Sequence record: PZ715802.1
Length of the DNA stretch: 49,124 nucleotides
Origin: a phage
Strand: one strand, 5' to 3'
This document shows, one piece after another, positions 24,742-45,570 of the stretch. The position numbers and the translations under genes were made by a program. Under the pieces are notes generated by a model, which had not been told where the DNA came from, made no database searches, and saw only the letters and a program-made list of their open reading frames with translations. Numbering within the stretch: the stretch's first letter is position 1; each line of letters starts with the position of its first letter.

Positions 24742-24799
24742 AAATATCTATATAATACATACACTTAGAGTTTAATTATTATTATATATATCTATTTGT
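24742..24799 (+). repeat. AT-rich repeat copy A (AAATATCTATATAATACAT ... TAATTATTATTATATAT)
   Basis: direct sequence match to second copy at 45514-45570. Confidence 0.6.
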
Positions 24800-25024
24800 A
24801 TCCTTCTTGTTTCCATTGTTCTATATGGTTTGTGGTGGTTGTGTGTTTTGTATTGGTTGATGGTTATATATCACATGGTATGTATTTATATATGGTATGC
24901 GGCTTAAATGCGTGAACAATGGAACACTAAAACAACAACTAGTAAAATCATAAACTTACGATGTGATTTTGTTGTCAACGCTAGTTGTAAACGTATGCAA
25001 AACAAAAAGAACGCTTAAATGGTA

Positions 25025-25052
25025 TTGACTACATGAAACATTCACATATAAT
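25025..25052 (+). promoter_or_regulatory. sigma70 promoter TTGACT-N16-TATAAT
   Basis: near-consensus hexamers 25025-25030 and 25047-25052, about 30 nt upstream of exonuclease ATG. Confidence 0.5.
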
Positions 25053-25080
25053 GCAGACATACCAACGAGAGGATGACTAA

Positions 25081-26136
25081 ATGAGCGATTTTAAAGTTTA
25101 CACCTTTGACCAGTTAACCAACGGTGAATATCACGATCCGAAAGGCTGGTCGGCTGAATACGTTAGCGGTTCAAGCCTAGCAGAAATCTTTGCAAGTTGT
25201 CCGGCAGCATGGAAATACAGACCACGCGAGGAAAGCAAAGCGCTTGTTTTCGGTACGCAGTCACACACAAACTTCCAGAGTAGTGAGCTATTCGCAAAAG
25301 AGTACCGCAGAGCGCCAGCGCCGGAAGATTATGAAAACCTGATTACGAGCCAGGCAGCATTGGCAGCGAAATTAAAATCTTTTGGCCTGACTGGTACAAG
25401 CGGGAAAACGTATCCAGATCTGATTAAGATGATGGTTGATTGTGGTGAGGATCTAAATGTGCAATGGCTCATTGAAATGATCGCAGAAAGCCAAGCGCGA
25501 GCGGATAACGTTGAATTGGTTCCGGCTAAAGATTACGACGCTTGCGTTTCTATGCGCCGTGTTCTTGAGGCAATACCAGAGCACAACGCTTGCATGAATA
25601 GCCCAACAGCACAACGCGAGCTATCAATTTTCGGCACTATAAAAGGCGTGAAAGTCAAAGTAAGGCTTGACCATGTTGATATTTGCAAGGATGTGCTTGC
25701 AACGGTAATTTCCGGCTATGACGGTGAAGGGAATCCGGTTTATGAAACAACGCGATTTGATGAAGCGATTGTGATCACTGATTACAAAACAACGTCAAGC
25801 GCTAACCCAACGGAGTTTTCACGGCTGGCATTTAATCATGGTTACTACTTAAAAATGGCATTGCAGCACGACCTATTCAAGAAAGCGTATCCAGAAGAAA
25901 AACGACCTGTTGTTGTTCGACTTCTGGCGCAAGAAAAGAAAGAGCCGTTTTTACCTATCGCATACCGAATGACAGACGAGCAATTGAAGATCGGACGTCT
26001 GCAATACATGAGCGTTATCAACCAGTTTGCAGAATGCCAGGCTAATGACGTTTGGCCTTCATATGCAAACGGTGAGCCGGAAATTGACCTGCAAACGCCT
26101 GATTGGGTACGCAGACAATACAAAGGTTTTTTATAA
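25081..26136 (+). CDS. PD-(D/E)XK recombination exonuclease
   Basis: ORF track; GAGAGGA RBS; ITDYKTT motif; sits directly upstream of Erf and SSB. Confidence 0.6.
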   Translation: MSDFKVYTFDQLTNGEYHDPKGWSAEYVSGSSLAEIFASCPAAWKYRPREESKALVFGTQSHTNFQSSELFAKEYRRAPAPEDYENLITSQAALAAKLKSFGLTGTSGKTYPDLIKMMVDCGEDLNVQWLIEMIAESQARADNVELVPAKDYDACVSMRRVLEAIPEHNACMNSPTAQRELSIFGTIKGVKVKVRLDHVDICKDVLATVISGYDGEGNPVYETTRFDEAIVITDYKTTSSANPTEFSRLAFNHGYYLKMALQHDLFKKAYPEEKRPVVVRLLAQEKKEPFLPIAYRMTDEQLKIGRLQYMSVINQFAECQANDVWPSYANGEPEIDLQTPDWVRRQYKGFL

Positions 26137-26137
26137 A

Positions 26138-26179
26138 TAGCACTTTTTGCTAAAACAGCCATTCGATGCGTGGTATACT
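26138..26179 (+). promoter_or_regulatory. composite box element: TAGCActtttTGCTA, 21 nt, TATACT
   Basis: palindrome 26138-26152; -10-like hexamer in loop of gcgtg/cacgc hairpin. Confidence 0.55.
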
Positions 26180-26211
26180 ACACGCATCAACCAACAAGAG
26201 AGGAAATAAAA

Positions 26212-26502
26212 ATGGAACAGCAATTCAATGAACAAGACACTCAAGACGTTCGCGATCATGTAGGCGGATTTGTAAACGCATTAGGCATTATGCAACGCCA
26301 GTTCTTACGAGTAATTGATCCAAGCGAATCACCGGAAACTCTTGAATACGTTCGCAAGGTTGCATATTCGATTGATAACGTTGTGTTAACAGTTCTTCAA
26401 ATGGAGAATAACGAAGAACACCGCAAGATGATTAATCAGGCAAGTGAAATCATGATCCAGAATTTGATTGATTATCACAACGAGAACAAAGAAAAGCATT
26501 AA
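26212..26502 (+). CDS. hypothetical protein
   Basis: internal ATG of track ORF 26170-26502 with AGAGGA RBS; track start would lie inside the box element. Confidence 0.45.
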   Translation: MEQQFNEQDTQDVRDHVGGFVNALGIMQRQFLRVIDPSESPETLEYVRKVAYSIDNVVLTVLQMENNEEHRKMINQASEIMIQNLIDYHNENKEKH

Positions 26503-26548
26503 TTAACACGGCGGCGCAAGCCGCCATTATTAAACCGGAGTCAATGAA

Positions 26549-27211
26549 ATGAAATTTTCCGATCAAAACGCAAACGTAATTAAGGCATTGTTTGAGGCGC
26601 GTCAGTTATTCACAAAAGTAAAAAAGGATAAGCAAAACACGCACCTTAAAAACAAATATGCAACTCTTGACAGCGTTCTTGATGCTATTATGCCTGGCCT
26701 TACTGATAAGGGTTTATTCCTTACTCAAGATCAGAAAGTTGGCGAAGATTTGAAATCAATGACGGTTTTAACTCGCTTCATTCACGTTGAATCAAATGAA
26801 TGGGTTGAATATAGTTTCACGTTGCCAATGCAGAAATTAGATCCACAAGGCGGCGGCTCAACAAACAGCTATGCGAGACGTTATGCTCTTTGCACGGCTC
26901 TTGGCCTTGCAACGGCTGACGATGACGCAAATCTTGCCACCAAAAACGCGCAGGATTGGAAAAAAGATCTTGATGCTTGCGATAACCTTACAGACTTACA
27001 AGAAACGTTTAAAACGGCTTACAAGCAATCTGACGCGGCTAACAGGAGAATCATTAAAGAGCATTACGACAAGCTAAAAGCAAAAATGGAAATCGGAAAG
27101 GCTCGCGGTTTTAATCCGGCAGCGCCAGCGGCTAATGTTGCGAAGAAGGAAAATGTTGAAAACGAGCCGCAACAGGAAGTAAAATCTCAATCTATCACAG
27201 ACTTTGAATAA
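26549..27211 (+). CDS. erf: Erf-family single-strand annealing protein
   Basis: ORF track; CCGGAG RBS; sequence around SYARRYALCTALGLA matches Erf family as recalled; adjacent to exonuclease and SSB. Confidence 0.7.
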   Translation: MKFSDQNANVIKALFEARQLFTKVKKDKQNTHLKNKYATLDSVLDAIMPGLTDKGLFLTQDQKVGEDLKSMTVLTRFIHVESNEWVEYSFTLPMQKLDPQGGGSTNSYARRYALCTALGLATADDDANLATKNAQDWKKDLDACDNLTDLQETFKTAYKQSDAANRRIIKEHYDKLKAKMEIGKARGFNPAAPAANVAKKENVENEPQQEVKSQSITDFE

Positions 27212-27249
27212 ATTAACGTGGGGCGGTAACGCCCCAATAAGGATTAAGA

Positions 27250-27675
27250 ATGCACGTAATCACCGGAGAAATTCGCAAAGAGCCATTTGTAAAGCAAGGC
27301 GCAAACGGCACATTATACATCGTTGAGCTTTCGGAGTCATTTAAAGATCGTGAAGGTAATCGACAATACACCAATTACAAATTCTTCTTTAATGCTAAAA
27401 GCGACGGCATGAATAATTGGTATCGTGAAGCATTTCAGCAGGGTAAAGTTATTTCTGTATCATGCGATCAGTTACGCATTGATAGCCAGGAATACAACGG
27501 GCAGATTTATAACACATTGACGGCGGCGGGCTTTCCTAATCTTTTATTCAGTCAACGCGGAGAAGGGCAAGCGCCACAACAGCAGCAACCTCGACAGCAA
27601 CAACAATCGCCACGCCAGCAAGCGCCTCAAAACAACGAGCCGCCTATGGATTTTGACGACGATATTCCATTCTGA
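27250..27675 (+). CDS. ssb: single-stranded DNA-binding protein
   Basis: ORF track; Gln/Pro-rich linker and acidic C-terminal tail DFDDDIPF. Confidence 0.8.
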   Translation: MHVITGEIRKEPFVKQGANGTLYIVELSESFKDREGNRQYTNYKFFFNAKSDGMNNWYREAFQQGKVISVSCDQLRIDSQEYNGQIYNTLTAAGFPNLLFSQRGEGQAPQQQQPRQQQQSPRQQAPQNNEPPMDFDDDIPF

Positions 27676-27677
27676 TA

Positions 27678-27707
27678 AAAGAAAAGGAGCCGAAAGGCTC
27701 CTTTTTT
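27678..27707. terminator. bidirectional intrinsic terminator between convergent genes
   Basis: palindrome aaaaggagcc-gaa-ggctcctttt with A-run and T-run on either side. Confidence 0.65.
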
Positions 27708-27708
27708 A

Positions 27709-30072
27709 TTACTTAGCAATCTGAACAAACATTGCTTGCATTTCCGCAATTGCGGCTTTCATTTCTGCGATCTCGTTTTTCAACTCTTTAATTTCCTCCT
27801 GTTGTTTCTCTATTTTTTCTTTCTGCTCTTTGAATGCGTTAACCAAAAGAGCTACAACGCCATTATAGTTAATGCCTTTGATTGCCTCGCCTTTTGGATC
27901 TAGCTGACCATCATTATTCAAAGAATGAACCGCTTCCGGCAAAACCCTTTCAACATCTTGTGCGATCAATCCAGCCTCAATACTATAAACGCTGTTTTCA
28001 TCTTCAATTAGATTGTTGCGCTTGTAGTAAGTATAACCAGTTAGATAATCAATTTTGTCGGATGCCGTTTCGATCTCTTTTAGATGTGCTTTCATCCTTA
28101 TGTCAGATGTGCTGATCCATTGGTTACAACTTGCATTTCCGGCGTGATTAAATATAAATTGCGCTCCCTTAACATAAAGATGTGTTTCAGCACCGCCACT
28201 CGACCAGTTAACGGCATCCATTCCAGTAATCCAAGAATCACCCCAATGAACAACCTTAAATACGTTAACGGCTGCGTCTTTTGCTGTAATCTCGCAAAGC
28301 ATTCCAGCACCACGATCACGCCAGGCATCAAAAGCGCCTTCCTGAATTTGACCGCCAATCATGGCATTTGCCCCACCAGACCTAATGCCAGCAACCCTAA
28401 TGCCGTTTGCATCGTCACTAATAGGCCATATACTCAATAACCCGTACATGTTAAAATCATTAGCTTGGCATGTTGCAATATTTCTACCGTTGCACATTAC
28501 TTGCAAAATGCCATCACCGCCCCACTTAAAACCTGTGTCAGTGTCACCAATTACTAACGCATTACTTCCAAGCGCATTACCAATACCCCTACCGATAACT
28601 ATTGAATTGTAATTTAGCGCGTTACCGCTTTCATCAAATTGATAATAGTTTGTATCACCTCCTTCCCTAGTGACTTGTATTGTTGATTTTGCTAATCCAC
28701 CTTGAATTTCGTTGTAAATTCTTGAGTATGAAAGCTGTACATTTTCTGGACTTTTGTTTATTAAATAAAGAATTCCAGAGTTTGCAGAGTTTTTTTCTGT
28801 TAGGCTTATCCCTCTAAAAACAGGAATGTCAGTTTCACCAATGCCAAAGTTATTCCTTGCTTGGCTTACGTTTGCTGCACCTGTGCCGCCCTGTAGAATT
28901 CCAAGAGGAATATACTGTTGCGATGCGATATTCCAGTAACCCCAACCATCGTTACCAACTGTAAGGTATTTGATCTTATCCGGCGACCGAATAAACGTTT
29001 CACCATCGCCCTGATCAAATCGGTCAATCTGGAAATTAATTCTTGCTTGCGTTACGTTTTCCGCACCAGTACCGCCAGCACCAACAGAAAGAGCGGATGT
29101 GCTGTTATCGCTATTTCTTGCAACTCGCCACTCGCCGTTGTTTGCGATCCGTAATTCATAAGTCCATGCAGGGTTACGAAATGAGTTATAATCACCTGGA
29201 TTTTGACCCTTAACTGAATTAACAGCCTCAACTTTCAGCGCCTCCCTTGCTAAATCTTTATTAGCAAGATCATTAAGATTCTGATCCTTATGCAGAAGGT
29301 TTTCAGGGTTAACTTGTTGTGCCCATTGGCGAGCTTCATCACGCGCAGTTTCAGCGCCTTGTTTAGCGTTTCCGGCTGCAACCTTTGATTGTTCAGCCAG
29401 ATCACGAGCTTCCACGGCTTCATCACGAGCGTTGAAAGCCTCCTGCTTAATGGCTTCCGTTTCTCTAACAGCAGCGTCTTTAATGCCTTGCGTTTGCGTC
29501 TTTATTGCGTCAGTGTCTGCCTTAATCTGATTGGTTTCATAAACAGCAGCATCCTTAATCCGTTGAGTTTCTGCAATCGCAGTATCTTTAATTTGCGTAG
29601 TCTCAGAAACAGCGGCATCCTTAATAGCTTGCGTGTCGTTTTTTAATTGCTCAGTTGCGGCGCGATCTGCATCCGTTTTTTGTGCGGAAGACTCAGCGCG
29701 AGCAACAAGATCCTGTAATGTTTTAAGGTCAAAGTTTTTGAAGAATTCAATTGCTTCCTCAATAACCGTTTCTTTACTTTGGTAATATCTCAGCGTTTCC
29801 GCAACATCTTGCGCCATTCCATCTACCGTTAAAGAGTCATTCAACAGGATCACATAATTTCCGTTTTCTACTGGCTCGCCGTCAGTCTGGATCGCTTTCA
29901 TTTCCGTGTCGCTTACAATATCGCTAATCACAGCCAATTTAAGAGGCGATGTGAGAAATACGATTGTTGCGCCAGTGCGGATAAGAGAAAGCGGCTCACG
30001 CCATTTTGTGCCAGTACCAGTGATAACGCCTTGTGCGTCCATTGCAGCCGTACCAGTGCGATATAAAGCCAT
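27709..30072 (-). CDS. side tail fibre with C-terminal intramolecular chaperone domain
   Basis: 787 aa; internal tandem IKDAAV.ET repeats; C-terminus DYLTGYTYY...IEAGLIAQDVERVLPEAV typical of self-cleaving chaperone domains. Confidence 0.8.
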   Translation of the reverse strand: MALYRTGTAAMDAQGVITGTGTKWREPLSLIRTGATIVFLTSPLKLAVISDIVSDTEMKAIQTDGEPVENGNYVILLNDSLTVDGMAQDVAETLRYYQSKETVIEEAIEFFKNFDLKTLQDLVARAESSAQKTDADRAATEQLKNDTQAIKDAAVSETTQIKDTAIAETQRIKDAAVYETNQIKADTDAIKTQTQGIKDAAVRETEAIKQEAFNARDEAVEARDLAEQSKVAAGNAKQGAETARDEARQWAQQVNPENLLHKDQNLNDLANKDLAREALKVEAVNSVKGQNPGDYNSFRNPAWTYELRIANNGEWRVARNSDNSTSALSVGAGGTGAENVTQARINFQIDRFDQGDGETFIRSPDKIKYLTVGNDGWGYWNIASQQYIPLGILQGGTGAANVSQARNNFGIGETDIPVFRGISLTEKNSANSGILYLINKSPENVQLSYSRIYNEIQGGLAKSTIQVTREGGDTNYYQFDESGNALNYNSIVIGRGIGNALGSNALVIGDTDTGFKWGGDGILQVMCNGRNIATCQANDFNMYGLLSIWPISDDANGIRVAGIRSGGANAMIGGQIQEGAFDAWRDRGAGMLCEITAKDAAVNVFKVVHWGDSWITGMDAVNWSSGGAETHLYVKGAQFIFNHAGNASCNQWISTSDIRMKAHLKEIETASDKIDYLTGYTYYKRNNLIEDENSVYSIEAGLIAQDVERVLPEAVHSLNNDGQLDPKGEAIKGINYNGVVALLVNAFKEQKEKIEKQQEEIKELKNEIAEMKAAIAEMQAMFVQIAK

Positions 30073-30109
30073 AATTTCACCTCATTTACTTGATTAAAAT
30101 AGTGTAGTG

Positions 30110-30138: not shown

Positions 30139-30140
30139 TA

Positions 30141-31820: not shown

Positions 31821-31831
31821 ATTTTTATATA

Positions 31832-31873
31832 TAGCACTTTTTGCTAAAAAACTTGATTAAGTTTGTGTATGAT
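31832..31873 (+). promoter_or_regulatory. composite box element: TAGCActtttTGCTA, 21 nt, TATGAT
   Basis: palindrome 31832-31846 upstream of helicase ATG 31909. Confidence 0.55.
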
Positions 31874-33884: not shown

Positions 33885-34292
33885 ATGGTTACTGACAAAG
33901 GCGATTATCTGGAGTATTACAACAAATCAGATCCAGACGATAGGAAGGAGGAAGCGCACCAGGTTGATTCTTATTCATGGCTAACATATGAGTTTCCAAT
34001 GTGGCTTGTTTGGCACACTAAAAACGAGGGGAAGAAAACCATAGGCACAGCCGTAAAGGATCAGCAAGCGGGTGTGAAGAAGGGAGTTAGCGACATTCTA
34101 ATCCTGACTGGTTTTATTGGCTGCAAGTATTCATTTATAGCCATTGAGCTTAAACGCGCCAACAAGAAAGGCACGAAGGTAAGCGACGAACAAAAGGAAT
34201 TCTTGCGACGTGTCAGAGAGTGCGGAGGGTTTGCCGCCGTATGCTATGGAGTAGAGCAAGTAAAATTGGCTATCGCAGACGCTACAAAATAG
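33885..34292 (+). CDS. VRR-NUC domain nuclease
   Basis: ORF track; AAGGAG RBS; D..ELK and EQKEFLRRVRECGG motifs; stop codon is TAG of box. Confidence 0.55.
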   Translation: MVTDKGDYLEYYNKSDPDDRKEEAHQVDSYSWLTYEFPMWLVWHTKNEGKKTIGTAVKDQQAGVKKGVSDILILTGFIGCKYSFIAIELKRANKKGTKVSDEQKEFLRRVRECGGFAAVCYGVEQVKLAIADATK

Positions 34293-34332
34293 CACTTTTT
34301 GTTAAAACAGGCGCAACGGAATGCGCCATAAT
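34290..34332 (+). promoter_or_regulatory. composite box element: TAGCActtttTGTTA, 22 nt, CATAAT
   Basis: palindrome 34290-34304; hairpin ggcgca/tgcgcc in spacer. Confidence 0.6.
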
Positions 34333-35446: not shown

Positions 35447-35677
35447 ATGAGCATTCGATTAGCCGATCACATGAAATGGGATTTATTTGTTGGTATGACA
35501 ATTCGCTTACTTGATAAGCATGGTTATAACGCTGATAAAATGGAGTTGATAAACTGCCTGGATATGACATTTGACGAAATAAAAGTTGCGCCTTTGTACA
35601 TGTGGGAAAGAAAAATTGAGCACGACCTGATACAATACAAACGCAGAGAGGGCGCACGATTTTTCAATGTGAAATAG
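35447..35677 (+). CDS. hypothetical protein
   Basis: ORF track; stop codon is TAG of box. Confidence 0.45.
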   Translation: MSIRLADHMKWDLFVGMTIRLLDKHGYNADKMELINCLDMTFDEIKVAPLYMWERKIEHDLIQYKRREGARFFNVK

Positions 35678-35717
35678 CACTTTTTGTTAAAACCCGCTTC
35701 GGCGGGTTTTGTATTAT
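35675..35717 (+). promoter_or_regulatory. composite box element: TAGCActtttTGTTA, 22 nt, TATTAT
   Basis: palindrome 35675-35689; spacer hairpin cccgc/gcggg followed by TTTT also looks terminator-like. Confidence 0.55.
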
Positions 35718-38828: not shown

Positions 38829-38871
38829 AATATACCCGATACAAGATCGGGTGTTTTAACAAAAAGTGCTA
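38829..38871 (-). promoter_or_regulatory. composite box element (minus): TAGCActtttTGTTA, 22 nt, TATATT
   Basis: palindrome 38857-38871; spacer hairpin cccgat/atcggg. Confidence 0.55.
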
Positions 38872-39066
38872 TTCAAAGCGCCTGACGTGAATTAGTAGTT
38901 CACCGTCATCATTTGTTAACTGGTGCTCATTATCTTCAAACGCTCGCATATCACTGTAAAGCAACAACATTAGTGCATAGACAAAATCATCATGCGAAAT
39001 TTGCATTGCTGAACTTTCTTTCAAAATAAGATCTATCAAATGCTGGCTTGCTGAATAATTCTTCAT
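38869..39066 (-). CDS. hypothetical protein (overlaps 38990-39382; status uncertain)
   Basis: track ORF; stop codon coincides with TAG of the box, as for several other genes. Confidence 0.3.
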   Translation of the reverse strand: MKNYSASQHLIDLILKESSAMQISHDDFVYALMLLLYSDMRAFEDNEHQLTNDDGELLIHVRRFE

Positions 39067-39382: not shown

Positions 39383-39384
39383 GA

Positions 39385-40965
39385 TTACCCCATTAACGCC
39401 GGATTTACATAAACAAATTTACCAACGCTGCAAACATAATTCTTTTCTTCAAGCATTGGCAATAATTGTTCCTCAATTCGTTTCATCACGCCTGATTGAC
39501 CTGTAAACGGCTTAACCTTACGCGCACTTTCATAGATAGCTCTTGCATTGGTAACGCCTTTATTTTGACGTGAGATCTTAATGATTATTTCAATTAACTT
39601 GCTCATTTCTGCATCATCGCCAGCGTGACCGGAAGCATTCGCGGCGTTGATATATGTTTTGCTTAATTCGCTGAACATCACCAAAGCCTCTTGCATTGTC
39701 TCAACTTCAATTTCTCGCGACTTTTGCGGCGTACCGTTTGGATTAAACCAATTGCGGATCGTGTGCAATACTGACGCAATGCGGATCACTTGCTTATCCA
39801 TTTTGCCCAAAGCACCACGCAACATTGTATGTGAATATTTCCCGCCGTCTGCTAAATCTGGCTCTAATTGCTGGCGAGCAATATTAAGAACACGCATTGC
39901 AGAACGTGACGGCTTCAATACAACATTTTGCTCAGTCATGATGTTATGAATCAACTGGAAATATTGCGCCTTTAATTCTTTATCAACTGGCGTGTAATCA
40001 AGATCACCATTTTCATCAATAAATACACGCTCGCCTAACATTGTTTTTTCACGTACAAGTAAGAAACGTTCACTAACACCGATACCACGCGCCCCTGCAT
40101 CCATGATCCCTTTTATCGTTTCATCCTGGGCAATTACGCTCATGCAGCCCAACGCAACAAAACTCATATTGTTTTCAGAGTTGGCGCGAGCTATTGAAAC
40201 GTGTCCGGCGTCCCATGCTTTTAGAACCAATTCGCTGTTAGTCTTGCGATCACTATTAGCGTAAGTCAATCCGAGTAAGCTGTTGATGCTTGTTGCTTCA
40301 TCGGAAATAACAGCAAAGTTACCCTGGCGATTGTTGATCTTTGCTAACCCTTCCGGCGTGGTGTCTGATACCGGAAAAACGATATCGCACATTTTTTCTA
40401 ACTTTTCCTCTAATTCCTCCTTTTCCTCAAACAACGCAGCTAACTCAGTGCCGGAACGTTCAGCTTTCAATTCCTTTTCAACGCCTTTTAATTTCGCTGC
40501 GATCTTCTTTCGCTCTTTCTTGCGTTGTTCGTTGATGCGCTCAACTTCACAGACCATTGGCGCAATAGCCAGGCTGTTGATTGCTGATTTACCAGTTGAT
40601 GGCGGCTGACTGGTTACAACGTAAAGCGCCGTTGGTTGTTCAGTGCCGTGGTACTCAACTTGGAAGCGTCCAACCATAGCGGCGGAAACGCAACCTATGA
40701 AATGCATATAGGCCGATGATTCAGGAAATTGAACAGATTGCGCAATGCTACGTGACAGTTTACCCACAACATCAACATCATTACCCAAAGAGATCACAGG
40801 ATAACGGTCATTAGCGCCGTTGATATCCTTCACAGGTTCCCAAAAGCTGGACGATTGGCGGTAGCCGTTCGACTGAATAGCAACGCGAAGCGGCGATGTT
40901 CCCTGCGATTCTGCAATGGCTATAACTTGTTGAGGTGTCAATTTGTTGGTGTCAAAGTCAAACAT
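39385..40965 (-). CDS. Walker-A ATPase, possibly replication-associated
   Basis: 526 aa; AAGGAGA RBS; SQPPSTGKSA P-loop-like motif; box element upstream. Confidence 0.5.
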   Translation of the reverse strand: MFDFDTNKLTPQQVIAIAESQGTSPLRVAIQSNGYRQSSSFWEPVKDINGANDRYPVISLGNDVDVVGKLSRSIAQSVQFPESSAYMHFIGCVSAAMVGRFQVEYHGTEQPTALYVVTSQPPSTGKSAINSLAIAPMVCEVERINEQRKKERKKIAAKLKGVEKELKAERSGTELAALFEEKEELEEKLEKMCDIVFPVSDTTPEGLAKINNRQGNFAVISDEATSINSLLGLTYANSDRKTNSELVLKAWDAGHVSIARANSENNMSFVALGCMSVIAQDETIKGIMDAGARGIGVSERFLLVREKTMLGERVFIDENGDLDYTPVDKELKAQYFQLIHNIMTEQNVVLKPSRSAMRVLNIARQQLEPDLADGGKYSHTMLRGALGKMDKQVIRIASVLHTIRNWFNPNGTPQKSREIEVETMQEALVMFSELSKTYINAANASGHAGDDAEMSKLIEIIIKISRQNKGVTNARAIYESARKVKPFTGQSGVMKRIEEQLLPMLEEKNYVCSVGKFVYVNPALMG

Positions 40966-40992
40966 CTAAAAATCTCCTTCTTGTTGCCGCTA

Positions 40993-41035
40993 ATTATAAC
41001 GGCAACATTCTACAGCCTTTTAGCAATTCGTGCTA
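40993..41035 (-). promoter_or_regulatory. composite box element (minus): TAGCAcgaatTGCTA, 22 nt, TATAAT
   Basis: palindrome 41021-41035; -10-like hexamer in loop of gttgccg/cggcaac hairpin. Confidence 0.6.
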
Positions 41036-41281: not shown

Positions 41282-41640
41282 GAGTATTTGGCCTCAAACA
41301 GATAAGCACCGCCAGCGGCTGAAAATCCAACTTCTTCCCGATACAGAGTGAAACGGTCTCCGTTTTCGTCGAAAACATATCCAGCAACAGCACCTAACAC
41401 GCGGCCTTGTTCGATCTGGTAACGCTTATCGGCTTTGAAAGTTTTCTTGATCTGCATGGAGTGGTTTACCCATGTGCATTTAATGGTTTTGGTCTTAACA
41501 TTTCGGAATGTTAATCCGGTTAAGTTGGCGTGAATCCATTTCCCATCTAACTTAACGAAAGTATCATCATTTTCGTCTACCCGCGCTTTGTATAGGCGGT
41601 TATCAGATCCGATAAGTTTGATTGATTTGAATTTAGCCAT
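41278..41640 (-). CDS. hypothetical protein
   Basis: ORF track; AAAGGAGA RBS. Confidence 0.5.
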   Translation of the reverse strand: MAKFKSIKLIGSDNRLYKARVDENDDTFVKLDGKWIHANLTGLTFRNVKTKTIKCTWVNHSMQIKKTFKADKRYQIEQGRVLGAVAGYVFDENGDRFTLYREEVGFSAAGGAYLFEAKYS

Positions 41641-41673
41641 TTGATTTATCTCCTTTTGTTTTCGTTGAAAGCA

Positions 41674-41715
41674 TTATGCCGGATACGTGATCCGGCGTTT
41701 TAACAAAAAGTGCTA
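41674..41715 (-). promoter_or_regulatory. composite box element (minus): TAGCActtttTGTTA, 21 nt, CATAAT
   Basis: palindrome 41701-41715; spacer hairpin gccggatc/gatccggc. Confidence 0.55.
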
Positions 41716-42408
41716 TTTCTGATTTGCCAGGCATACAGCAAGCGCAAAGCCGCGCGGAGTGAGTGAGCGGATCAGCTTTGTTCGCTTAGACTTGCCGCCG
41801 AGCTTTTGCCAGCCTGGATTGTTGTTCCCTGTTGGCAATACTGCGTTTGTATCCGGCATTACAAAGCCGTTACCCGTCCAAAGACAAGTTTTTTTGGTGT
41901 ACGCATCGCGAGCGGGAATGATTTCAGGAAAGTGAGGATGTTTATCATCTTCCGGCAACAGACCTCCAAACGCGCAAGGATGAAAGATAAAATCAGGTTG
42001 CCGCCACATTGACGACAGAACACTAACAGGATTCTCAATCATGTATGGAACGTTAAACCGATCCGCAATATTGGCAGCAATCTTTGCCGTTTCAACCGCC
42101 TTTTTCTGGAAGTCTGGATCACGTTCACGCTTTGCGGCAAAGTGACGCGATCCACTAACAGCTAAATCAGTGCATGGAGGGAATGCAATAATAAAATCTG
42201 GAGTGCCAAAGACGCGCATCATTGCGTTATGCTGGAATGATAATCCGATCCACTCATTCAAATAAACTATGTTGGGATGAGTCACGCGCACTGATTGGTA
42301 ATCACCATGATCAGCACCGTCGAAATTAAAGCACAGCACTTTGTGACCACGTTCAGCCCACGGCAACGCAGCATAACCAGAACCATCAAATAGTGAGAAA
42401 ATAAGCAT
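41713..42408 (-). CDS. compact DNA cytosine-5 methyltransferase-like protein
   Basis: internal ATG of track ORF 41713-42462 with AAAGGA RBS; motif I LFDGSG, motif IV FPPC, motif VI ENP with spacing as in M.HhaI-type enzymes; only about 231 aa. Confidence 0.5.
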   Translation of the reverse strand: MLIFSLFDGSGYAALPWAERGHKVLCFNFDGADHGDYQSVRVTHPNIVYLNEWIGLSFQHNAMMRVFGTPDFIIAFPPCTDLAVSGSRHFAAKRERDPDFQKKAVETAKIAANIADRFNVPYMIENPVSVLSSMWRQPDFIFHPCAFGGLLPEDDKHPHFPEIIPARDAYTKKTCLWTGNGFVMPDTNAVLPTGNNNPGWQKLGGKSKRTKLIRSLTPRGFALAVCLANQK

Positions 42409-42516
42409 GTTTAAATCCTTTCTGTATGACCTTGTAAGGCGTTTTGTTTGTAGGTGTGACAATCGTATTAGTTACGGCCTGAAATCGCGACATAATGCGA
42501 AACAGGCCGCTATTTT

Positions 42517-42594
42517 TTACTTACAGAATGGGCATGTTGTTTTATTCCCGCTTCCGCCGTGTTTTGGACAGCAAATTTTTTCGATAGGTGTCAT
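42517..42594 (-). CDS. Cys-rich mini-protein (25 aa), not in ORF track
   Basis: ATG with GGAG RBS; MTPIEKICCPKHGGSGNKTTCPFCK. Confidence 0.25.
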   Translation of the reverse strand: MTPIEKICCPKHGGSGNKTTCPFCK

Positions 42595-42606
42595 TTTAAA
42601 TACTCC

Positions 42607-42831
42607 TTAGAATGGGAAACAACGCTTGCAAGATGGATCGAAGTTACAACCGCAATCATTGATTATTGCGTTAGGATCAGCAAGCATCACGCTACTTTCT
42701 TGATCCATATCCATAGCGCCTAATGCGTCATCAAGCGTTATTTCAAGATAGGCAACTTTAAGCGCCCATTCCTTGTTGAGTCCAGCCGCATCCGCTTCAT
42801 GTAGGCGAGCAAAGAAAGCATCTTGAACCAT
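42607..42831 (-). CDS. hypothetical protein with C-terminal Cys cluster
   Basis: track ORF 42607-42849 begins with TTG; first ATG at 42831. Confidence 0.4.
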   Translation of the reverse strand: MVQDAFFARLHEADAAGLNKEWALKVAYLEITLDDALGAMDMDQESSVMLADPNAIINDCGCNFDPSCKRCFPF

Positions 42832-42832
42832 A

Positions 42833-43054
42833 TCAACCCCACTTCTCAATAAACATGCTCATTTCGTCAATCATCGCGTAAGCATCGCTTTCAGTCATGC
42901 GACGGATTCTTCCGCCTGGGTGTTCGCCAACAGCGTAACCAGTTTTTACGCGGGTAATCGTTAACTGATGGAATCCAGAGTCGCGATCCATTTTCAAAAC
43001 TACTTTCCCGTGAGCTTTGACAATGTTCATGATGGATTCAGTTTTCAGTTTCAT
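42833..43054 (-). CDS. hypothetical protein
   Basis: ORF track; GGAGA RBS. Confidence 0.45.
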   Translation of the reverse strand: MKLKTESIMNIVKAHGKVVLKMDRDSGFHQLTITRVKTGYAVGEHPGGRIRRMTESDAYAMIDEMSMFIEKWG

Positions 43055-43085
43055 TTTTGATTCTCCATTTTGTTTATGTGAAAGT

Positions 43086-43128
43086 ATGATACCAATCAGA
43101 GCGTTATCGTTTTTAGCAATTCGTGCTA
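43086..43128 (-). promoter_or_regulatory. composite box element (minus): TAGCAcgaatTGCTA, 22 nt, TATCAT
   Basis: palindrome 43114-43128. Confidence 0.55.
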
Positions 43129-43280
43129 TTTACGGCGATAAACGGATATCCTGTTAAATCTGCATTTCTATAACGTGCAGACCTAACCCAACAGCCGCCT
43201 TTGCTCATAATTAAAGCGTTTTTATGGCGAATATTCACGCGGTAAATTCTTCCGGTTTTTATGTTTTTGAAGTAGGTCAT
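43113..43280 (-). CDS. hypothetical small protein (55 aa), not in ORF track
   Basis: ATGA overlap with stop of 43277-43510; reads through the box and stops within it. Confidence 0.3.
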   Translation of the reverse strand: MTYFKNIKTGRIYRVNIRHKNALIMSKGGCWVRSARYRNADLTGYPFIAVNSTNC

Positions 43281-43510
43281 AATTTAACCTCATGATACTC
43301 TATAAACTCTTGCACATATGCGCATTCGCGCGGCGACTCCTGGCCTTTTATCACCTCACAGCCACCATTAAACAGATAGCAGTGCTGGCAAAGGTTGCCA
43401 CCTGCGTTTTCCTCAGCGATCTGAATTCCGGTACACAAACCGCCACCAAACCTATGAGGAAAATCGTAAGCATGGCAGCGGCACGTTGCTTGATTCCGCT
43501 TACGTTTCAT
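43277..43510 (-). CDS. Cys-rich hypothetical protein
   Basis: ORF track; eight Cys residues. Confidence 0.45.
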   Translation of the reverse strand: MKRKRNQATCRCHAYDFPHRFGGGLCTGIQIAEENAGGNLCQHCYLFNGGCEVIKGQESPRECAYVQEFIEYHEVKL

Positions 43511-43791
43511 TAGATGTTCTCGCTAATAAACTGGATAACCTGGCGAAGATGTTTTTCATCTTTAATTAATGCTGGCAATTCTTCCATAACTTCTTTTTTA
43601 AGATAAATGTTTGCATTCCATGTGAATGAGCCATCACCATTTACGCGGTAAGAGCAAAGCCATTCGCAATCATTATCAGATTCCCAAATGCACAGCGTTT
43701 CAAATTCTTCAAACTTGTTGTAACCCGTTTCAATGCTTAACTCAATGCCACGTTTGCCAGCGAAGTTAGTAGTTGTTTTTGATACCATCAT
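43510..43791 (-). CDS. hypothetical protein
   Basis: ORF track; GGAGA RBS. Confidence 0.45.
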   Translation of the reverse strand: MMVSKTTTNFAGKRGIELSIETGYNKFEEFETLCIWESDNDCEWLCSYRVNGDGSFTWNANIYLKKEVMEELPALIKDEKHLRQVIQFISENI

Positions 43792-43823
43792 TTTAAAATT
43801 CTCCGGTTCGTTTCGATGAATGC

Positions 43824-43866
43824 ATTATGCCAAAACAAACCGGATCGCTTTTAACAAAAAGTGCTA
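43824..43866 (-). promoter_or_regulatory. composite box element (minus): TAGCActtttTGTTA, 22 nt, CATAAT
   Basis: palindrome 43852-43866. Confidence 0.55.
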
Positions 43867-43968
43867 TTTAATTAAAATACTAATACCTTTTCGCACGCTT
43901 TCCGTCGCCTCCGTAATGGTCATTAGCAACAGCAAGAATCCAAGCGTTAGGAATAAAAAATAGCTTCA

Positions 43969-44163
43969 TTAATCACTCTCCATGACAATTACAGGCTCCA
44001 GGCGCTCAAGCACCACTTTGAAATCGGAGTAAAAAGTGGGGCGACATTTTGTTAATTCCTCATATGTATCAGTTGCCAGGCAAGCGCGATCACCTTCATA
44101 GCACACAACTCGCTTACCATTTGCGCGACTGATTGCAACGACGCGATAAGTATTATTGATCAT
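43969..44163 (-). CDS. hypothetical protein
   Basis: ORF track; start overlaps upstream stop. Confidence 0.4.
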   Translation of the reverse strand: MINNTYRVVAISRANGKRVVCYEGDRACLATDTYEELTKCRPTFYSDFKVVLERLEPVIVMESD

Positions 44164-44396
44164 TTCATCACCTCAATTGAATAAATACTTTCAACGCCTG
44201 GCGCGTATAACCGATCTCCATCTTCAGTTATGCAAAGGCAAAGTGCAAGGCCGCGATTGTCTAAAATATGCAAGTCATTTTGTCTATCCATCAAAATTTC
44301 ATATTCGCGATCTTCATCAAATCGCCAAACGCTTAACATGCACTTTCCAGATGATTTAACTTTTACTTTCTTTCCGGCGAAATTTAAACGACTCAT
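44160..44396 (-). CDS. hypothetical protein
   Basis: ORF track; ATGA overlaps at both ends. Confidence 0.45.
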   Translation of the reverse strand: MSRLNFAGKKVKVKSSGKCMLSVWRFDEDREYEILMDRQNDLHILDNRGLALCLCITEDGDRLYAPGVESIYSIEVMK

Positions 44397-44611
44397 TGCG
44401 CCACCTCCACAGTTTCAAATACGGTATTGAATGCCAGAAGTTTAAATTTCTTGCCAGGCTCAACCACTGCGATATTCCAGGTAATGCCGCCGTGATATGC
44501 AACCATATCATCAATATCAACAGTAACCTCAGTACCTTTTTTGAACAATCCTTTTTCGTGGCTCGCATCGCGTACAGTAACCACAGTTTCGAATTGAGTT
44601 TGAATTTCCAT
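44393..44611 (-). CDS. hypothetical protein
   Basis: ORF track; AGGAGA RBS. Confidence 0.45.
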   Translation of the reverse strand: MEIQTQFETVVTVRDASHEKGLFKKGTEVTVDIDDMVAYHGGITWNIAVVEPGKKFKLLAFNTVFETVEVAQ

Positions 44612-44642
44612 CGTTAATCTCCTGATTGGTTTCGATGGGGTA

Positions 44643-44685
44643 ACTATATCAAGATACCCCGATCCGGTTTTAACAAAAAATGCTA
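44643..44685 (-). promoter_or_regulatory. composite box element (minus): TAGCAtttttTGTTA, 22 nt, TATAGT
   Basis: palindrome 44671-44685. Confidence 0.55.
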
Positions 44686-44686
44686 T

Positions 44687-45121
44687 TTACAGCCATTCGC
44701 CGGAAACAATGAAATCAGTGAAATCGTCATGATCCAAAATGCTGTGATAGCCAGTGCAATAATCATTTTTAACCATGTTACCACGCAAACGCACATAATC
44801 AGCCTTTCGATCCGTAATCCAACGAATAAAGCGAGCGTTACGTTGTGGTATCGTTCCGGCGTAAGCCTCTTTGAATCCAATGTGTGCGATGAATGCCACA
44901 AAGCGGATTTGCAAGCCTGGATTGTCTTTCTTTGCCTCGTTAACCAGGTCGCGGAAGTTTTCACGCGTTGGCTTGACCGGAACCAATTCGCCTAACTCGA
45001 TCATGCGGTTGAAGTCTGAAACACTGGAAGATGATTCCATAAACAGCCCATCGCTACCAAACATCACAACGCCGCTTTCGATGAAGTAAGTGTGTCCGTT
45101 GTATTTGTTGGTGTATTTCAT
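44687..45121 (-). CDS. hypothetical protein
   Basis: internal ATG of track ORF 44687-45157 with GAGGA RBS; first gene after the minus-strand box at 45153-45195. Confidence 0.5.
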   Translation of the reverse strand: MKYTNKYNGHTYFIESGVVMFGSDGLFMESSSSVSDFNRMIELGELVPVKPTRENFRDLVNEAKKDNPGLQIRFVAFIAHIGFKEAYAGTIPQRNARFIRWITDRKADYVRLRGNMVKNDYCTGYHSILDHDDFTDFIVSGEWL

Positions 45122-45152
45122 CGTGAATTCCTCATTTCGTTTCGATGAAGTA

Positions 45153-45195
45153 ATCATAGCAATTCGCGTCTGATTGGTTTTAACAAAAAGTGCTA
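45153..45195 (-). promoter_or_regulatory. composite box element (minus): TAGCActtttTGTTA, 22 nt, TATGAT
   Basis: palindrome 45181-45195; first promoter of the minus-strand block. Confidence 0.55.
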
Positions 45196-45205
45196 TTCAT
45201 GCAAT

Positions 45206-45233
45206 AGACCGATTGGTCTAGACCGTTTGGTCT
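45206..45233. promoter_or_regulatory. operator-like tandem 14-bp palindromic repeats AGACCGATTGGTCT / AGACCGTTTGGTCT
   Basis: two adjacent copies differing at one base; includes perfect 10-bp palindrome GGTCTAGACC. Confidence 0.45.
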
Positions 45234-45269
45234 AATGAACGCATCGTTTTGTGTATCGAACGCATTCAT

Positions 45270-45297
45270 GATCCTGTTACGTGATCGTTATATGATC
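45270..45297. repeat. cluster of three GATC sites within 28 bp
   Basis: GATC at 45270, 45283, 45294 inside a non-coding region; the phage encodes a Dam-type methyltransferase. Confidence 0.4.
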
Positions 45298-45513
45298 AGA
45301 TGATGATTGATGTGTGAGATTTTGTGATTGAAATTGATTTGATTTGATTAGATTTGAGTAGTGAGTGAGTAGAAATAATCACACCTTGCCGATCAGTGAA
45401 AACTTTTCCCGCAAAACATCACTCCATGCTCCGCGCGTTTCGTTTTGTTCCTCGTTGTTTTCCGCCAGACCTTCCGCAGTTTAGCGCAACGTTACACAAC
45501 ACGTATAACAACA

Positions 45514-45570
45514 AAATATCTATATAATACATTGAAAAGTAAGATAATTATTATTATATATCTATATTGT
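45514..45570 (+). repeat. AT-rich repeat copy B
   Basis: matches copy A at 24742-24799. Confidence 0.6.

What the first reader, a model, noticed from the sequence alone, without database searches (positions are those of the whole stretch)
24742..45570. Two copies of a roughly 58-bp AT-rich repeat, 20 kb apart, each at a transcription-unit boundary
24742-24799 and 45514-45570 share AAATATCTATATAATACAT, then about 12 variable bp, then TAATTATTATTATATAT(AT)CTAT(T/A)TTGT. Both sit in the only two long non-coding regions of the genome. They contain a TATAAT hexamer but no recognisable -35 or box palindrome, so they may be promoters for a modified polymerase, architectural-protein sites or replication elements.
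Basis: seen in the sequence. Interest (0 to 1): 0.6.

Follow-up and report, generated by a model that had tools for sequence, protein, structure and literature searches.

The report
Paired AT-rich cores, candidate T1-phage origins
The two AT-rich repeats are real: they are the easiest-to-melt cores of a ~450-bp non-coding module that every T1-like phage examined carries twice, which makes them the best current candidates for the still-unmapped replication origins of this classical phage family.

Summary
24742-24799 and 45514-45570 share an exact 19-mer and an exact 17-mer, separated by a 12-bp spacer that differs. Nothing else in the window matches.

The window is a complete Tlsvirus genome (a T1-like phage, Drexlerviridae). 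The 58-bp repeat is the core of a larger feature: a ~400-450-bp non-coding module present twice per genome. One copy lies upstream of recE, the other upstream of the first pac-proximal early gene. I found both copies in eight genera or lineages covering four subfamilies (Tempevirinae, Tunavirinae, Braunvirinae, Rogunavirinae).

- **Stability:** in all seven full genomes tested, the two cores are the two least stable duplex stretches (z about +4.2 to +5.9; next best about +3.8 or less).
- **Selection:** the boxes are under purifying selection and the spacer is not.
- **Co-evolution:** the two copies in one genome co-evolve.
- **Flanks:** short lineage-specific repeats (TGTTC / TGTAAC) and IHF-consensus sites surround the cores, and each module ends in a consensus sigma-70 early promoter reading away from the core.

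No sigma-70 promoter, Rfam RNA, stable hairpin, DnaA box or pac-type sequence explains the core.

Best reading (about 0.42): the cores are DNA-unwinding elements of paired replication origins, or of an origin plus an enhancer. The main rival is an architectural or regulatory upstream element of the immediate-early promoters. No paper I could search describes these modules, and two T1-like genome papers (TLS 2024, SU57 2020) state that no origin was found.

The parts
24634..24661 (+). Intrinsic terminator of the tail-tip J gene. It forms the left boundary of module A.
   Evidence: 12-bp stem followed by a T run. It is invariant among 7 Tlsvirus genomes and is annotated as a terminator in phage Stevie.
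24670..24706 (+). Module A, left flank. Contains TTGTTC and GTGTTCAC (two TGTTC-type repeats 10 bp apart) followed by CCGGCGTAG.
   Evidence: These blocks are conserved in the 18-module alignment. TGTTC occurs 6 times in module A against 1.1 expected.
24723..24739 (+). A-rich block ACAACAAAAAGAACAAA just upstream of the core. The same motif recurs upstream of the recE promoter at 24999-25013.
24742..24799 (+). Copy A of the reported repeat: box 1 (24742-24760), variable spacer (24761-24772), box 2 (24773-24799). It contains an internal direct repeat ATATCTA at 24744 and 24788.
   Evidence: Variable sites among 7 Tlsvirus genomes: box 1 0/19, spacer 4/12, box 2 2/27. It is the second least stable duplex window of the genome.
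24800..24877 (+). G+T-rich tract (75-79% G+T on the + strand) with TGTT-N7-TGTT at its start. Its length varies between phages.
   Evidence: It is the top G+T window of the genome; see also the alignment.
24878..24927 (+). A second (TA)n tract (GTATGTATTTATATATGG), followed by the tandem inverted-orientation repeats GTGAACA and TGGAACA.
   Evidence: The repeat sequence changes with lineage: GTTAACA x2 in W011D, TGTAAC x2 in JohannLBurckhardt, CGATTAACA x3 in T1.
24946..24958 (+). IHF-consensus-like site AATCATAAACTTA (1 mismatch to WATCAANNNNTTR).
   Evidence: The site is perfect or has 1 mismatch at the homologous position in most of the 18 modules.
24999..25052 (+). A-rich upstream block followed by the consensus sigma-70 promoter TTGACT-16-TATAAT of the recE-recT-ssb operon. 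It reads away from the core.
   Evidence: 11 of 12 consensus positions. It corresponds to promoter P51 in TLS Supplementary Table S1.
45380..45513 (+). Module B, left flank: the counterparts of the module A left-flank blocks, at 45443-45463, 45470-45479 and 45494-45515.
45514..45570 (+). Copy B of the reported repeat: box 1 (45514-45532), spacer (45533-45544), box 2 (45545-45570). It contains an internal direct repeat ATATCTATAT at 45516 and 45558.
   Evidence: It is the least stable duplex window of the genome. The sequence is identical in phages Punny and F115.
45571..45812 (+). Module B, right part, a diverged allele. It holds an AT tract (45651-45666), GTGTAAC and TAGAACA repeats (45683-45709), an A-rich block (45770-45784) and the promoter TTGACG-16-TAAGAT (45785-45812) of the first early gene (ATG at 45847).
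   Evidence: The equivalent promoter in TLS is P01.
45176..45372 (.). Left half of intergenic region B, which is not duplicated elsewhere. It holds a leftward 21-nt-repeat promoter region (45176-45197, minus strand), tandem palindromes AGACCGATTGGTCT / AGACCGTTTGGTCT (45206-45233), three GATC sites within 28 bp (45270-45297) and a TGATT-rich tract. Position 1 of the TLS record (its assigned pac site) corresponds to 45317.
   Evidence: PMC11447400.

Best explanation
The 58-bp repeat is the DNA-unwinding core of a ~450-bp intergenic module that T1-like phages carry twice. I read the two modules as the phage's replication origins, or as an origin plus a distant enhancer in the manner of P4 ori/crr.

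Proposed mechanism:
1. A phage-specific DNA-binding factor recognises the conserved boxes and/or the short flanking repeats (TGTTC-type in Tlsvirus, TGTAAC-type in T1).
2. Host IHF bends the DNA at the conserved WATCAA-N4-TTR sites.
3. The strong early promoter at the module's right end reads away from the core. In most genera a leftward promoter sits on the other side as well. This transcription leaves negative supercoils behind it.
4. Those supercoils open the (TA)n-rich core, which is the least stable duplex in the genome.
5. The phage helicase(s) and primase load there, and host Pol III takes over.

Shown here: the repeat, the module, its two-copy synteny across the family, the stability minima, purifying selection on the boxes, co-evolution of the two copies, repeat enrichment, the IHF-like sites and the promoter arrangement.

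Inferred: any protein binding, melting in vivo, and initiation of replication.
For: 1. **Stability.** The two cores rank first and second for duplex instability in all 7 full genomes tested: the window, TLS, U136B, T1, JohannLBurckhardt, Rtp and Rogue1. This holds at window sizes of 40, 60 and 100 bp. Their z is +4.2 to +5.9, and the next-best site is about +3.8 or less.
2. **Two copies, same places.** Module pairs lie at the same two syntenic positions in genera of four subfamilies. blastn with one module hits 212 phage records. Nothing similar occurs in plasmids or E. coli genomes. A core profile built without the target genus finds exactly the two cores in five genomes; in T1 they are still the top two hits but are not significant (E 1.3 and 4.9).
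3. **Selection.** Among 7 Tlsvirus genomes, intergenic region A is 13.5% variable, against 36% at third codon positions of the adjacent J gene. Box 1 has 0/19 variable sites, box 2 has 2/27, and the spacer has 4/12.
4. **Co-evolution.** The A and B cores of one genome are more alike than cores paired across genera; only 2-7 of 720 permutations reach the observed value. In Punny and F115 the A core matches B in exact runs of 20 and 24 bp.
5. **Flanking repeats.** In T1, TGT[AT]AC occurs 12 times against 0.5 expected in module A and 4 against 0.45 in module B, and all 6 genomic TGTAACA lie in the two regions. TGTTC occurs 6-7 times against about 1.2 expected in Tlsvirus A modules and in the TLS and U136B B modules.
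6. **IHF sites.** IHF-consensus sites sit at homologous positions.
7. **Setting.** Both cores lie in untranscribed gaps. Each is next to one of the only three consensus sigma-70 promoters reported for TLS (P01, P51), and that promoter reads away from the core.
8. **Need.** The phage needs a cis-acting origin. It has a primase and two helicases but no polymerase, and no origin was found by the authors of the TLS (PMC11447400) or SU57 (PMC7718038) genome papers. The 526-aa DUF3987 protein models as an MCM-like AAA+ ATPase with a C-terminal winged helix, which makes it a plausible initiator-helicase.
Against: - There is no experimental evidence of any kind. I found no transcript, replication-intermediate or binding data for any T1-like phage.
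- The flanking 'iterons' are short (5-7 bp), were chosen after looking at the data, and differ between lineages and even between the A and B modules of one genome.
- The window's own copy B module shows no TGTTC enrichment (2 observed, 1.1 expected).
- There are no conserved DnaA boxes, and GATC is nearly absent from the modules, unlike oriC.
- Low duplex stability is also typical of upstream promoter regions and of H-NS targets.
- Each module is tied to a strong early promoter, so a purely transcriptional role fits about as well.
- The winged helix of the helicase is generic, and a specific match to the P4 alpha origin-binding domain was not found.
Confidence: 0.42

Rival explanations
1. The modules are upstream architectural or regulatory regions of the immediate-early promoters. 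The AT-rich core and IHF sites would bind nucleoid proteins (IHF, H-NS, Fis) and/or a phage regulator such as the Cro-like HTH protein encoded next to the primase. That binding would boost, time or shut off transcription of the two early operons, with no role in replication.
For: - Each module ends in one of only three consensus sigma-70 promoters reported for TLS (P01, P51).
- The A-rich block ACAAAAAGAAC sits at UP-element distance from the recE -35 and recurs upstream of box 1.
- IHF-like sites lie about 65 bp upstream of the -35.
- (TA)n-rich DNA is a classic H-NS nucleation target (my own knowledge).
- Co-evolution of the two copies fits a shared regulator equally well.
- An HTH protein is encoded by the operon of the third promoter, P57.
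Against: - The core lies 225-265 bp upstream of the -35, far beyond usual activator or UP-element range.
- The third consensus promoter (P57) works from an 88-bp gap with no such module.
- Repressor sites normally overlap the promoter, whereas here the repeats lie 98-115 bp (module A) and 76-102 bp (module B) upstream of the -35.
- H-NS silencing of its own early promoters would harm a virulent phage.
- This reading does not explain why these two stretches are the two most meltable in the genome in 7 of 7 genomes.
Confidence: 0.28
2. Box 1 is a -10-only or otherwise unusual promoter. It would make a short non-coding or primer RNA reading rightwards into the G+T-rich tract. The RNA would either be a regulator or form an R-loop primer, as at T4 oriF/oriG, T7 or ColE1. 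The primer version overlaps with the origin hypothesis.
For: - A perfect TATAAT is present in both copies, preceded by an A-rich block.
- TATAAT is also present in T1 A and B, W011D B, JohannLBurckhardt A and all Tlsvirus B alleles.
- In Tlsvirus the non-template strand downstream is G+T-rich, which would favour R-loops.
Against: - There is no -35, no extended -10, and no promoter call in either core on either strand.
- The hexamer loses its key final T in Hanrivervirus, W011D A and JohannLBurckhardt B (TATAAA, TATATA, TATACA).
- There is no Rfam match.
- Fold energies are like those of shuffled sequence in three of four cases.
- The downstream tract varies in length and sequence and is not G+T-rich in T1 or Rtp.
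- No terminator follows.
Confidence: 0.1
3. The core is an accessory part of the DNA-packaging (pac) signal, or a conserved recombination or mosaic-junction sequence.
For: - The assigned pac site of TLS lies about 200 bp left of copy B. It was placed only approximately, by restriction mapping plus resemblance to the P22 pac site.
- Several GenBank records start within 20-130 bp of the B core.
- B-module alleles with different downstream genes meet at the core.
Against: - Copy A lies 20.8 kb from pac and has none of the unique GATC-cluster / TGATT sequence of the pac region.
- Only one submolar pac fragment is reported for TLS.
- A duplicated pac specificity element would start a second packaging series.
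Confidence: 0.06
4. The sequence has no specific function. It would be AT-rich spacer DNA kept similar by gene conversion between two intergenic regions.
For: The phage encodes RecE/RecT, and the copies co-evolve. The sequence is of low complexity.
Against: - The boxes are under strong purifying selection while the spacer drifts.
- Box sequences are retained across four subfamilies, for example TATTATTATTATTATATAT in Rtp and Rogue1.
- The positions are always syntenic.
Confidence: 0.08

Closest known systems
Bacillus phage SPP1 oriL / oriR (my own knowledge: Pedre et al. 1994; Missich et al. 1997)
   Same: SPP1 is also a pac-type siphovirus that uses the host polymerase. It has two distant, similar cis regions, each combining short repeated boxes for a phage initiator with an adjacent AT-rich stretch.
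   Different: In SPP1 the boxes are defined binding sites of G38P, and oriL lies inside gene 38. Here both sites are intergenic, the binding protein is unknown, and there is no sequence similarity to SPP1. Function is untested.
Satellite phage P4 ori + crr (type I iteron TGTTCACC bound by the alpha primase-helicase; my own knowledge)
   Same: P4 has two cis elements kilobases apart that share short repeats in both orientations. The Tlsvirus repeat TGTTCAC equals the core of the P4 iteron. The T1 record annotates its primase as similar to P4-type alpha proteins.
   Different: In T1-like phages the primase and helicases are separate genes. The C-terminal winged helix of the DUF3987 helicase gave only generic winged-helix matches, and the P4 origin-binding domain was not among the top 50. 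The repeat differs in other genera (TGTAAC, GTTAAC). P4 crr has no AT-rich core like this one.
T4 oriF/oriG and the T7 primary origin (a promoter plus a downstream AT-rich unwinding element; my own knowledge)
   Same: An AT-rich unwinding element is coupled to transcription by host or phage RNA polymerase, and a lytic phage has several origins.
   Different: In T4 and T7 the promoter reads into the unwinding element to make a primer. Here the only credible promoters read away from the core, and no promoter is detectable within it.
The 21-nt direct repeat of T1-like phages, aaATAGCACnnnTTGnTAAAA (PMC11447400)
   Same: It is also a repeated intergenic element of the same genomes, also of unknown function, and it lies near both modules (for example at 45176-45197).
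   Different: It is a different sequence, with about 18-20 copies per genome, each about 76 nt upstream of a start codon and oriented with transcription. The 58-bp repeat has exactly two copies and is not associated with a nearby start codon.

Membership tests
Iteron/DUE-type replication origin (lambda ori, P4 ori/crr, SPP1 oriL/oriR type) | An AT-rich DNA-unwinding element of minimal helical stability | tested here: met
   The two cores rank first and second for instability in 7 of 7 full genomes at three window sizes.
Iteron/DUE-type replication origin (lambda ori, P4 ori/crr, SPP1 oriL/oriR type) | Several copies of an initiator-binding repeat next to the unwinding element | tested here: inconclusive
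   Short motifs are enriched. In T1, TGT[AT]AC occurs 12 times against 0.5 expected (p 2e-13). In Tlsvirus A modules, TGTTC occurs 6-7 times against 1.2 expected (p about 1e-3). However, the motifs are 5-7 bp, were picked after looking at the data, vary between the A and B modules, and are not enriched in the window's copy B.
Iteron/DUE-type replication origin (lambda ori, P4 ori/crr, SPP1 oriL/oriR type) | Host accessory sites (IHF and/or DnaA boxes) | tested here: inconclusive
   IHF-consensus sites are conserved at homologous positions. No conserved DnaA box was found, and GATC is depleted.
Iteron/DUE-type replication origin (lambda ori, P4 ori/crr, SPP1 oriL/oriR type) | Replication initiates at the site, or the site supports replication when the initiator is supplied in trans | not testable with these tools
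   This needs marker-frequency sequencing, 2D gels or plasmid origin assays.
Iteron/DUE-type replication origin (lambda ori, P4 ori/crr, SPP1 oriL/oriR type) | A phage-encoded initiator that binds the repeats | not testable with these tools
   Only candidates can be named. One is the 526-aa MCM-like AAA+ protein with a C-terminal winged helix. The other is the 202-aa Cro-like HTH protein.
Sigma-70 promoter | A -10 hexamer with a -35 hexamer 16-18 bp upstream (or an extended -10) | tested here: not met
   TATAAT is present, but no -35 or TGn motif accompanies it. The consensus scan calls nothing in either core on either strand.
Sigma-70 promoter | Conservation of the key -10 positions (A2, T6) in orthologues | tested here: not met
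   The hexamer becomes TATAAA, TATATA or TATACA in Hanrivervirus, W011D A and JohannLBurckhardt B.
21-nt T1-like direct repeat (aaATAGCACnnnTTGnTAAAA) | A match to the consensus, with many copies about 76 nt upstream of start codons | tested here: not met
   The sequence is different, there are exactly two copies, and they lie 282-334 nt from the next start codon.
pac site of headful-packaging phages | A unique site at the start of the packaging series | tested here: not met
   The element is duplicated 20.8 kb away. The TLS pac assignment maps to window position 45317, about 200 bp left of copy B, in sequence that is not duplicated.
Structured non-coding RNA (Rfam family or new) | A covariance-model match, or a fold more stable than shuffled sequence | tested here: not met
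   There is no Rfam hit at gathering threshold, and the relaxed search gave only chance-level hits. Fold z-scores are +1.0, -0.7 and -0.9. Only the minus strand of copy A reaches -2.8.
Cruciform or hairpin DNA element | An inverted repeat whose hairpin is more stable than chance | tested here: not met
   The arms are 70-74% complementary. DNA fold z-scores run from -0.73 to +0.28 in six cores.

The most novel reading that the evidence does not exclude
T1-like phages (Drexlerviridae) start replication at two co-evolving, sequence-specific origin modules per genome. Each is a (TA)n-rich bipartite core flanked by lineage-specific short repeats and IHF sites, and each is opened by supercoiling from immediate-early promoters that read outwards. 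The two may work as an obligate pair (origin plus enhancer, like P4 ori/crr), recognised by a still-unidentified phage protein whose specificity has drifted along with the repeats.
Probability: 0.3. Interest if true: 0.7.

Novelty: new member of a known kind. Interest (0 to 1): 0.6.

Why it matters
T1 is one of the seven classical T phages, and its relatives are common laboratory contaminants and phage-therapy candidates. Their replication origin has never been located. The 2024 re-annotation of the type phage TLS states that no origin-type repeats were found anywhere in the genome.

This analysis turns a two-copy AT-rich repeat into a defined, family-wide pair of about 450-bp modules with precise coordinates and conserved sub-elements. 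Deletion, plasmid origin assays and marker-frequency sequencing can test them directly.

If the modules are origins, they would also:
- explain the only two long non-coding regions of these compact genomes;
- give a handle for engineering T1-like phages and for identifying their initiator protein.

If they are instead control regions of the immediate-early promoters, they would define how these phages organise their first transcription.

Tried and rejected
- **Sigma-70 promoter inside the core:** none on either strand, and the TATAAT is not conserved across genera.
- **Known RNA family or structured RNA:** no Rfam hit at gathering threshold, only chance-level hits in the relaxed search, and fold z-scores that are mostly insignificant.
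- **Cruciform or hairpin:** the dyad symmetry is weak, and DNA fold energies equal those of shuffled sequence.
- **DnaA boxes or oriC-like GATC clustering:** absent; the modules are in fact GATC-poor.
- **Identity with the known 21-nt T1-like repeat:** rejected, the sequences differ.
- **pac site:** the pac region is the non-duplicated left half of intergenic region B.
- **P4-alpha-like origin-binding domain in the DUF3987 helicase:** sequence searches of the PDB found nothing. The C-terminal domain is a generic winged helix, with an MCM4 winged-helix domain as top match at E 0.03 and the P4 domain not in the top 50.
- **Relatives in plasmids or E. coli chromosomes:** none. IMG/VR returned mostly the same isolates.
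- **Published transcriptome or origin data for a T1-like phage:** none found. The RNA-seq in PMC13250531 is for a T5-like phage.
- **Papers not accessible:** the Rtp genome paper is not held, and I did not look up the T1 genome paper (Roberts et al. 2004), so I cannot exclude that they mention these regions.
- **A-versus-B orthology in the core:** no clear signal. Between-genus identities are A-A 56%, B-B 56% and A-B 54%.

Full report
**What the window is.** The 49,124-bp window is a complete genome of a T1-like phage. It belongs to the genus Tlsvirus (Drexlerviridae, Tempevirinae). In the two intergenic regions compared it is 95.5-98.7% identical to Salmonella phages phSE-2 and PCST1, and intergenic region A is 97.8% identical to Escherichia phage U136B.

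**The observation.**
- Box 1 (AAATATCTATATAATACAT) is identical at 24742-24760 and 45514-45532.
- Box 2 (TAATTATTATTATATAT) is identical at 24773-24789 and 45545-45561.
- The 12-bp spacer has the same length in both copies but shares only 2 of 12 bases.
- With up to three mismatches each box has only these two hits. Shuffled genomes give 0.03 and 0.33 hits on average.
- The two sites lie in the two longest non-coding gaps, 24620-25080 and 45158-45846. The annotated relatives show the same.
- Copy A lies between the terminator of the tail-tip J gene (24634-24661) and a consensus promoter for recE (25025-25052).
- Copy B lies between a leftward gene block and a rightward early block with its own promoter (45785-45812).

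**The repeat is the core of a much larger duplicated module.** In TLS, U136B and Stevie, the region corresponding to copy B is a different allele. That allele aligns with the whole of intergenic region A over about 400-450 bp. I aligned 18 modules (A and B copies) from five genera: Tlsvirus, Henuseptimavirus, Hanrivervirus, Changchunvirus and Tunavirus (T1 itself). The alignment shows the same ordered blocks in all of them:
1. TTGTTC..GTGTTCAC;
2. CCGGCGTAG;
3. an A-rich block;
4. the AT-rich bipartite core;
5. TGTT-N7-TGTT;
6. a tract of variable length;
7. a second (TA)n tract;
8. tandem GTGAACA-type repeats;
9. an IHF-like site;
10. ATTTTGTT;
11. a second A-rich block and a consensus sigma-70 promoter.

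Rtp (Braunvirinae) and Rogue1 (Rogunavirinae) carry the pair as well. Their box 2 is nearly the same as here, TATTATTATTATTATATAT. blastn with one module finds 212 phage records, and nothing in plasmids or E. coli genomes.

A profile of the core built without the target genus recovers exactly the two cores, and nothing else, in the window, TLS, U136B, JohannLBurckhardt and Rtp. In T1 the two cores are still the top two hits but are not significant (E 1.3 and 4.9). So the pair is a hallmark of Drexlerviridae. One copy is always upstream of recE, and the other is upstream of the first gene to the right of the pac region.

**Evidence of function.**
- *Selection.* Among seven Tlsvirus genomes, intergenic region A has 13.5% variable sites, against 36% at third codon positions of the adjacent J gene. 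Box 1 has 0/19 variable sites, box 2 has 2/27, and the spacer has 4/12. Orthologues therefore show the same 'two boxes plus free spacer' pattern that the two paralogues show.
- *Co-evolution.* The A and B cores of one genome resemble each other more than cores of other genera. Mean identity is 0.60-0.62 against 0.50, and only 2-7 of 720 permutations reach the observed value. A cores are no closer to other A cores than to B cores. In Punny and F115 the A core has shifted towards the B sequence, giving exact runs of 20 and 24 bp. This points to gene conversion, to a shared trans-acting factor, or to both.

**Physical and sequence properties.**
- *Stability.* By nearest-neighbour energies, the two cores are the first and second least stable duplex windows of the whole genome in all seven full genomes. 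This holds at 40, 60 and 100 bp. Their z is +4.2 to +5.9, and the next site is about +3.8 or less.
- *Rare words.* (TA)n heptamers are almost confined to the modules: 18 of 20 TATATAT in T1. All four ATATCTA in the window lie in the cores, two per core and 42-44 bp apart.
- *Flanking repeats.* Short repeats in both orientations are enriched around the cores and vary by lineage. In T1, TGT[AT]AC occurs 12 times against 0.5 expected and 4 against 0.45, and all six genomic TGTAACA lie in the two regions. TGTTC occurs 6-7 times against about 1.2 expected in Tlsvirus A modules and in the TLS and U136B B modules. The window's B allele shows no such enrichment.
- *IHF sites.* The IHF consensus WATCAANNNNTTR is perfect inside the core of Hanrivervirus and Henuseptimavirus in both copies. 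A second site is perfect or off by one base at a homologous position in most modules; in the window it is at 24946-24958.
- *Absent features.* There are no conserved DnaA boxes. GATC is abundant in the genome (284 sites) but nearly absent from the modules.

**Transcription context.** The TLS re-annotation found only three consensus sigma-70 promoters: P01, P51 and P57. P01 and P51 are the promoters at the right ends of modules B and A. Both read away from the core. In most genera a leftward gene with the 21-nt-repeat promoter region sits on the other side of each module. The core is then bracketed by divergent transcription, which is the arrangement that builds up negative supercoiling. P57 sits in an 88-bp gap with no such module, so the module is not a general requirement of consensus promoters.

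**What the core is not.**
- Not a recognisable sigma-70 promoter. The TATAAT is lost in several genera.
- Not an Rfam family or a convincingly structured RNA.
- Not a cruciform.
- Not the known 21-nt repeat.
- Not the pac site. Per the TLS paper, pac maps about 200 bp to the left of copy B, in sequence that is not duplicated.

**Most likely mechanism.** I think the modules are replication origins, or an origin plus a distant enhancer, with the 58-bp repeat as the unwinding element.

These phages have a primase and two helicases but no polymerase. Two genome papers state that no origin was found. The modules are the only sizeable non-coding DNA in the genome. They combine minimal duplex stability, flanking short repeats, IHF sites and outward-reading early promoters.

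A candidate initiator-helicase exists. The 526-aa DUF3987 protein models with pLDDT 89 as an MCM-like AAA+ ATPase (Foldseek E 9e-6) with a C-terminal winged helix. That domain gave only generic winged-helix matches, so a specific link to the P4 alpha origin-binding domain is not supported. The similarity of TGTTCAC to the P4 iteron TGTTCACC remains a lead, not a result.

All binding, melting and initiation steps are inferred. I put this reading at about 0.42.

**Rivals.**
- *Upstream architectural or regulatory element of the immediate-early promoters (about 0.28).* It explains the link to P01 and P51 and the IHF sites. It does not easily explain a core 225-265 bp upstream of the -35, or the stability minima.
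- *An unusual promoter for a primer or non-coding RNA (about 0.10).*
- *A pac accessory or recombination junction (about 0.06).*
- *Conserved spacer without specific function (about 0.08).*

**Novelty.** The searchable literature describes the 21-nt repeat but not these modules. The Rtp genome paper is not held and I did not look up the T1 genome paper, so an earlier mention there cannot be excluded. If the modules are origins, they are a new member of a known kind. The nearest analogues are SPP1 oriL/oriR and P4 ori/crr.

**Verdict.** The finding is real and much broader than reported, and it is directly testable.

Noticed in passing
window, about 20 sites, e.g. 1080-1102, 2454-2475, 26133-26155, 31827-31849, 34287-34308, 35672-35693, 46818-46840, 49071-49093 (+) and 38852-38873, 41697-41718, 43849-43869, 44665-44687, 45176-45197 (-): A 21-22-nt repeat, AAATAGCACnnnTTGnTAAAAC, lies upstream of many genes and is oriented with transcription. 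It is often followed by a short GC-rich hairpin-like segment and a conserved leader. This is the direct repeat already described for TLS, and its function is still unknown.
   Followed up: partly
window 45206-45233: Two adjacent 14-bp palindromes, AGACCGATTGGTCT and AGACCGTTTGGTCT, lie just upstream of the leftward promoter region of intergenic region B. They look like operators for a dimeric DNA-binding protein. They are present in TLS and Stevie but replaced by unrelated sequence in U136B.
   Followed up: partly
window 45270-45372: Three GATC sites within 28 bp are followed by a C-poor, TGATT/GTGAG-rich tract. Position 1 of the TLS record (its assigned pac site, AGATTT) corresponds to 45317. 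Other GenBank records of relatives start at different points of this region (45321, 45382, 45484), so the true packaging cut seems poorly defined.
   Followed up: partly
window 45571-45846 compared with L006:290-587 and L004:290-588: The right part of module B and the first early gene exist as at least three alleles within the genus Tlsvirus (window type, U136B/Stevie type, TLS type). The AT-rich core sits at the junction, which is a mosaic boundary.
   Followed up: partly
the 21 modules analysed (window 24620-25085, 45381-45850 and their counterparts in L004, L006, L018-L026, L031, L032): GATC is strongly depleted in the modules (0-1 per ~470 bp, 8 in about 10 kb), although the genome is GATC-rich (284 in 49 kb) and the phage encodes a Dam-like methylase.
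   Followed up: no
window 39385-40965 (-): The 526-aa DUF3987 'helicase' is predicted with high confidence to be an MCM-like AAA+ ATPase with a C-terminal winged-helix domain. It has no sequence-level relative in the PDB.
   Followed up: partly
window 29447-29637 (-) within the 787-aa tail-fibre gene: Four copies of a repeat about 50 nt long, three of them at 33-nt spacing, lie inside the lateral tail-fibre gene. This implies an 11-residue periodic protein repeat.
   Followed up: no
GenBank records MG065663, MG065665, MG065667 and others ('Campylobacter phage A1xx'), and OR786094 ('Streptococcus phage MBBL140'): Records labelled as Campylobacter or Streptococcus phages carry these modules (93% identical in MBBL140, about 74-79% in the Campylobacter-labelled records) and have T1-like genome sizes. 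They are probably mislabelled or contaminant coliphage genomes.
   Followed up: no
window 24800-24880: This is the most G+T-rich 80-nt window of the genome on the + strand (79%). The equivalent tract is G+T-rich in other Tempevirinae modules but not in T1 or Rtp, and its length and sequence vary.
   Followed up: partly
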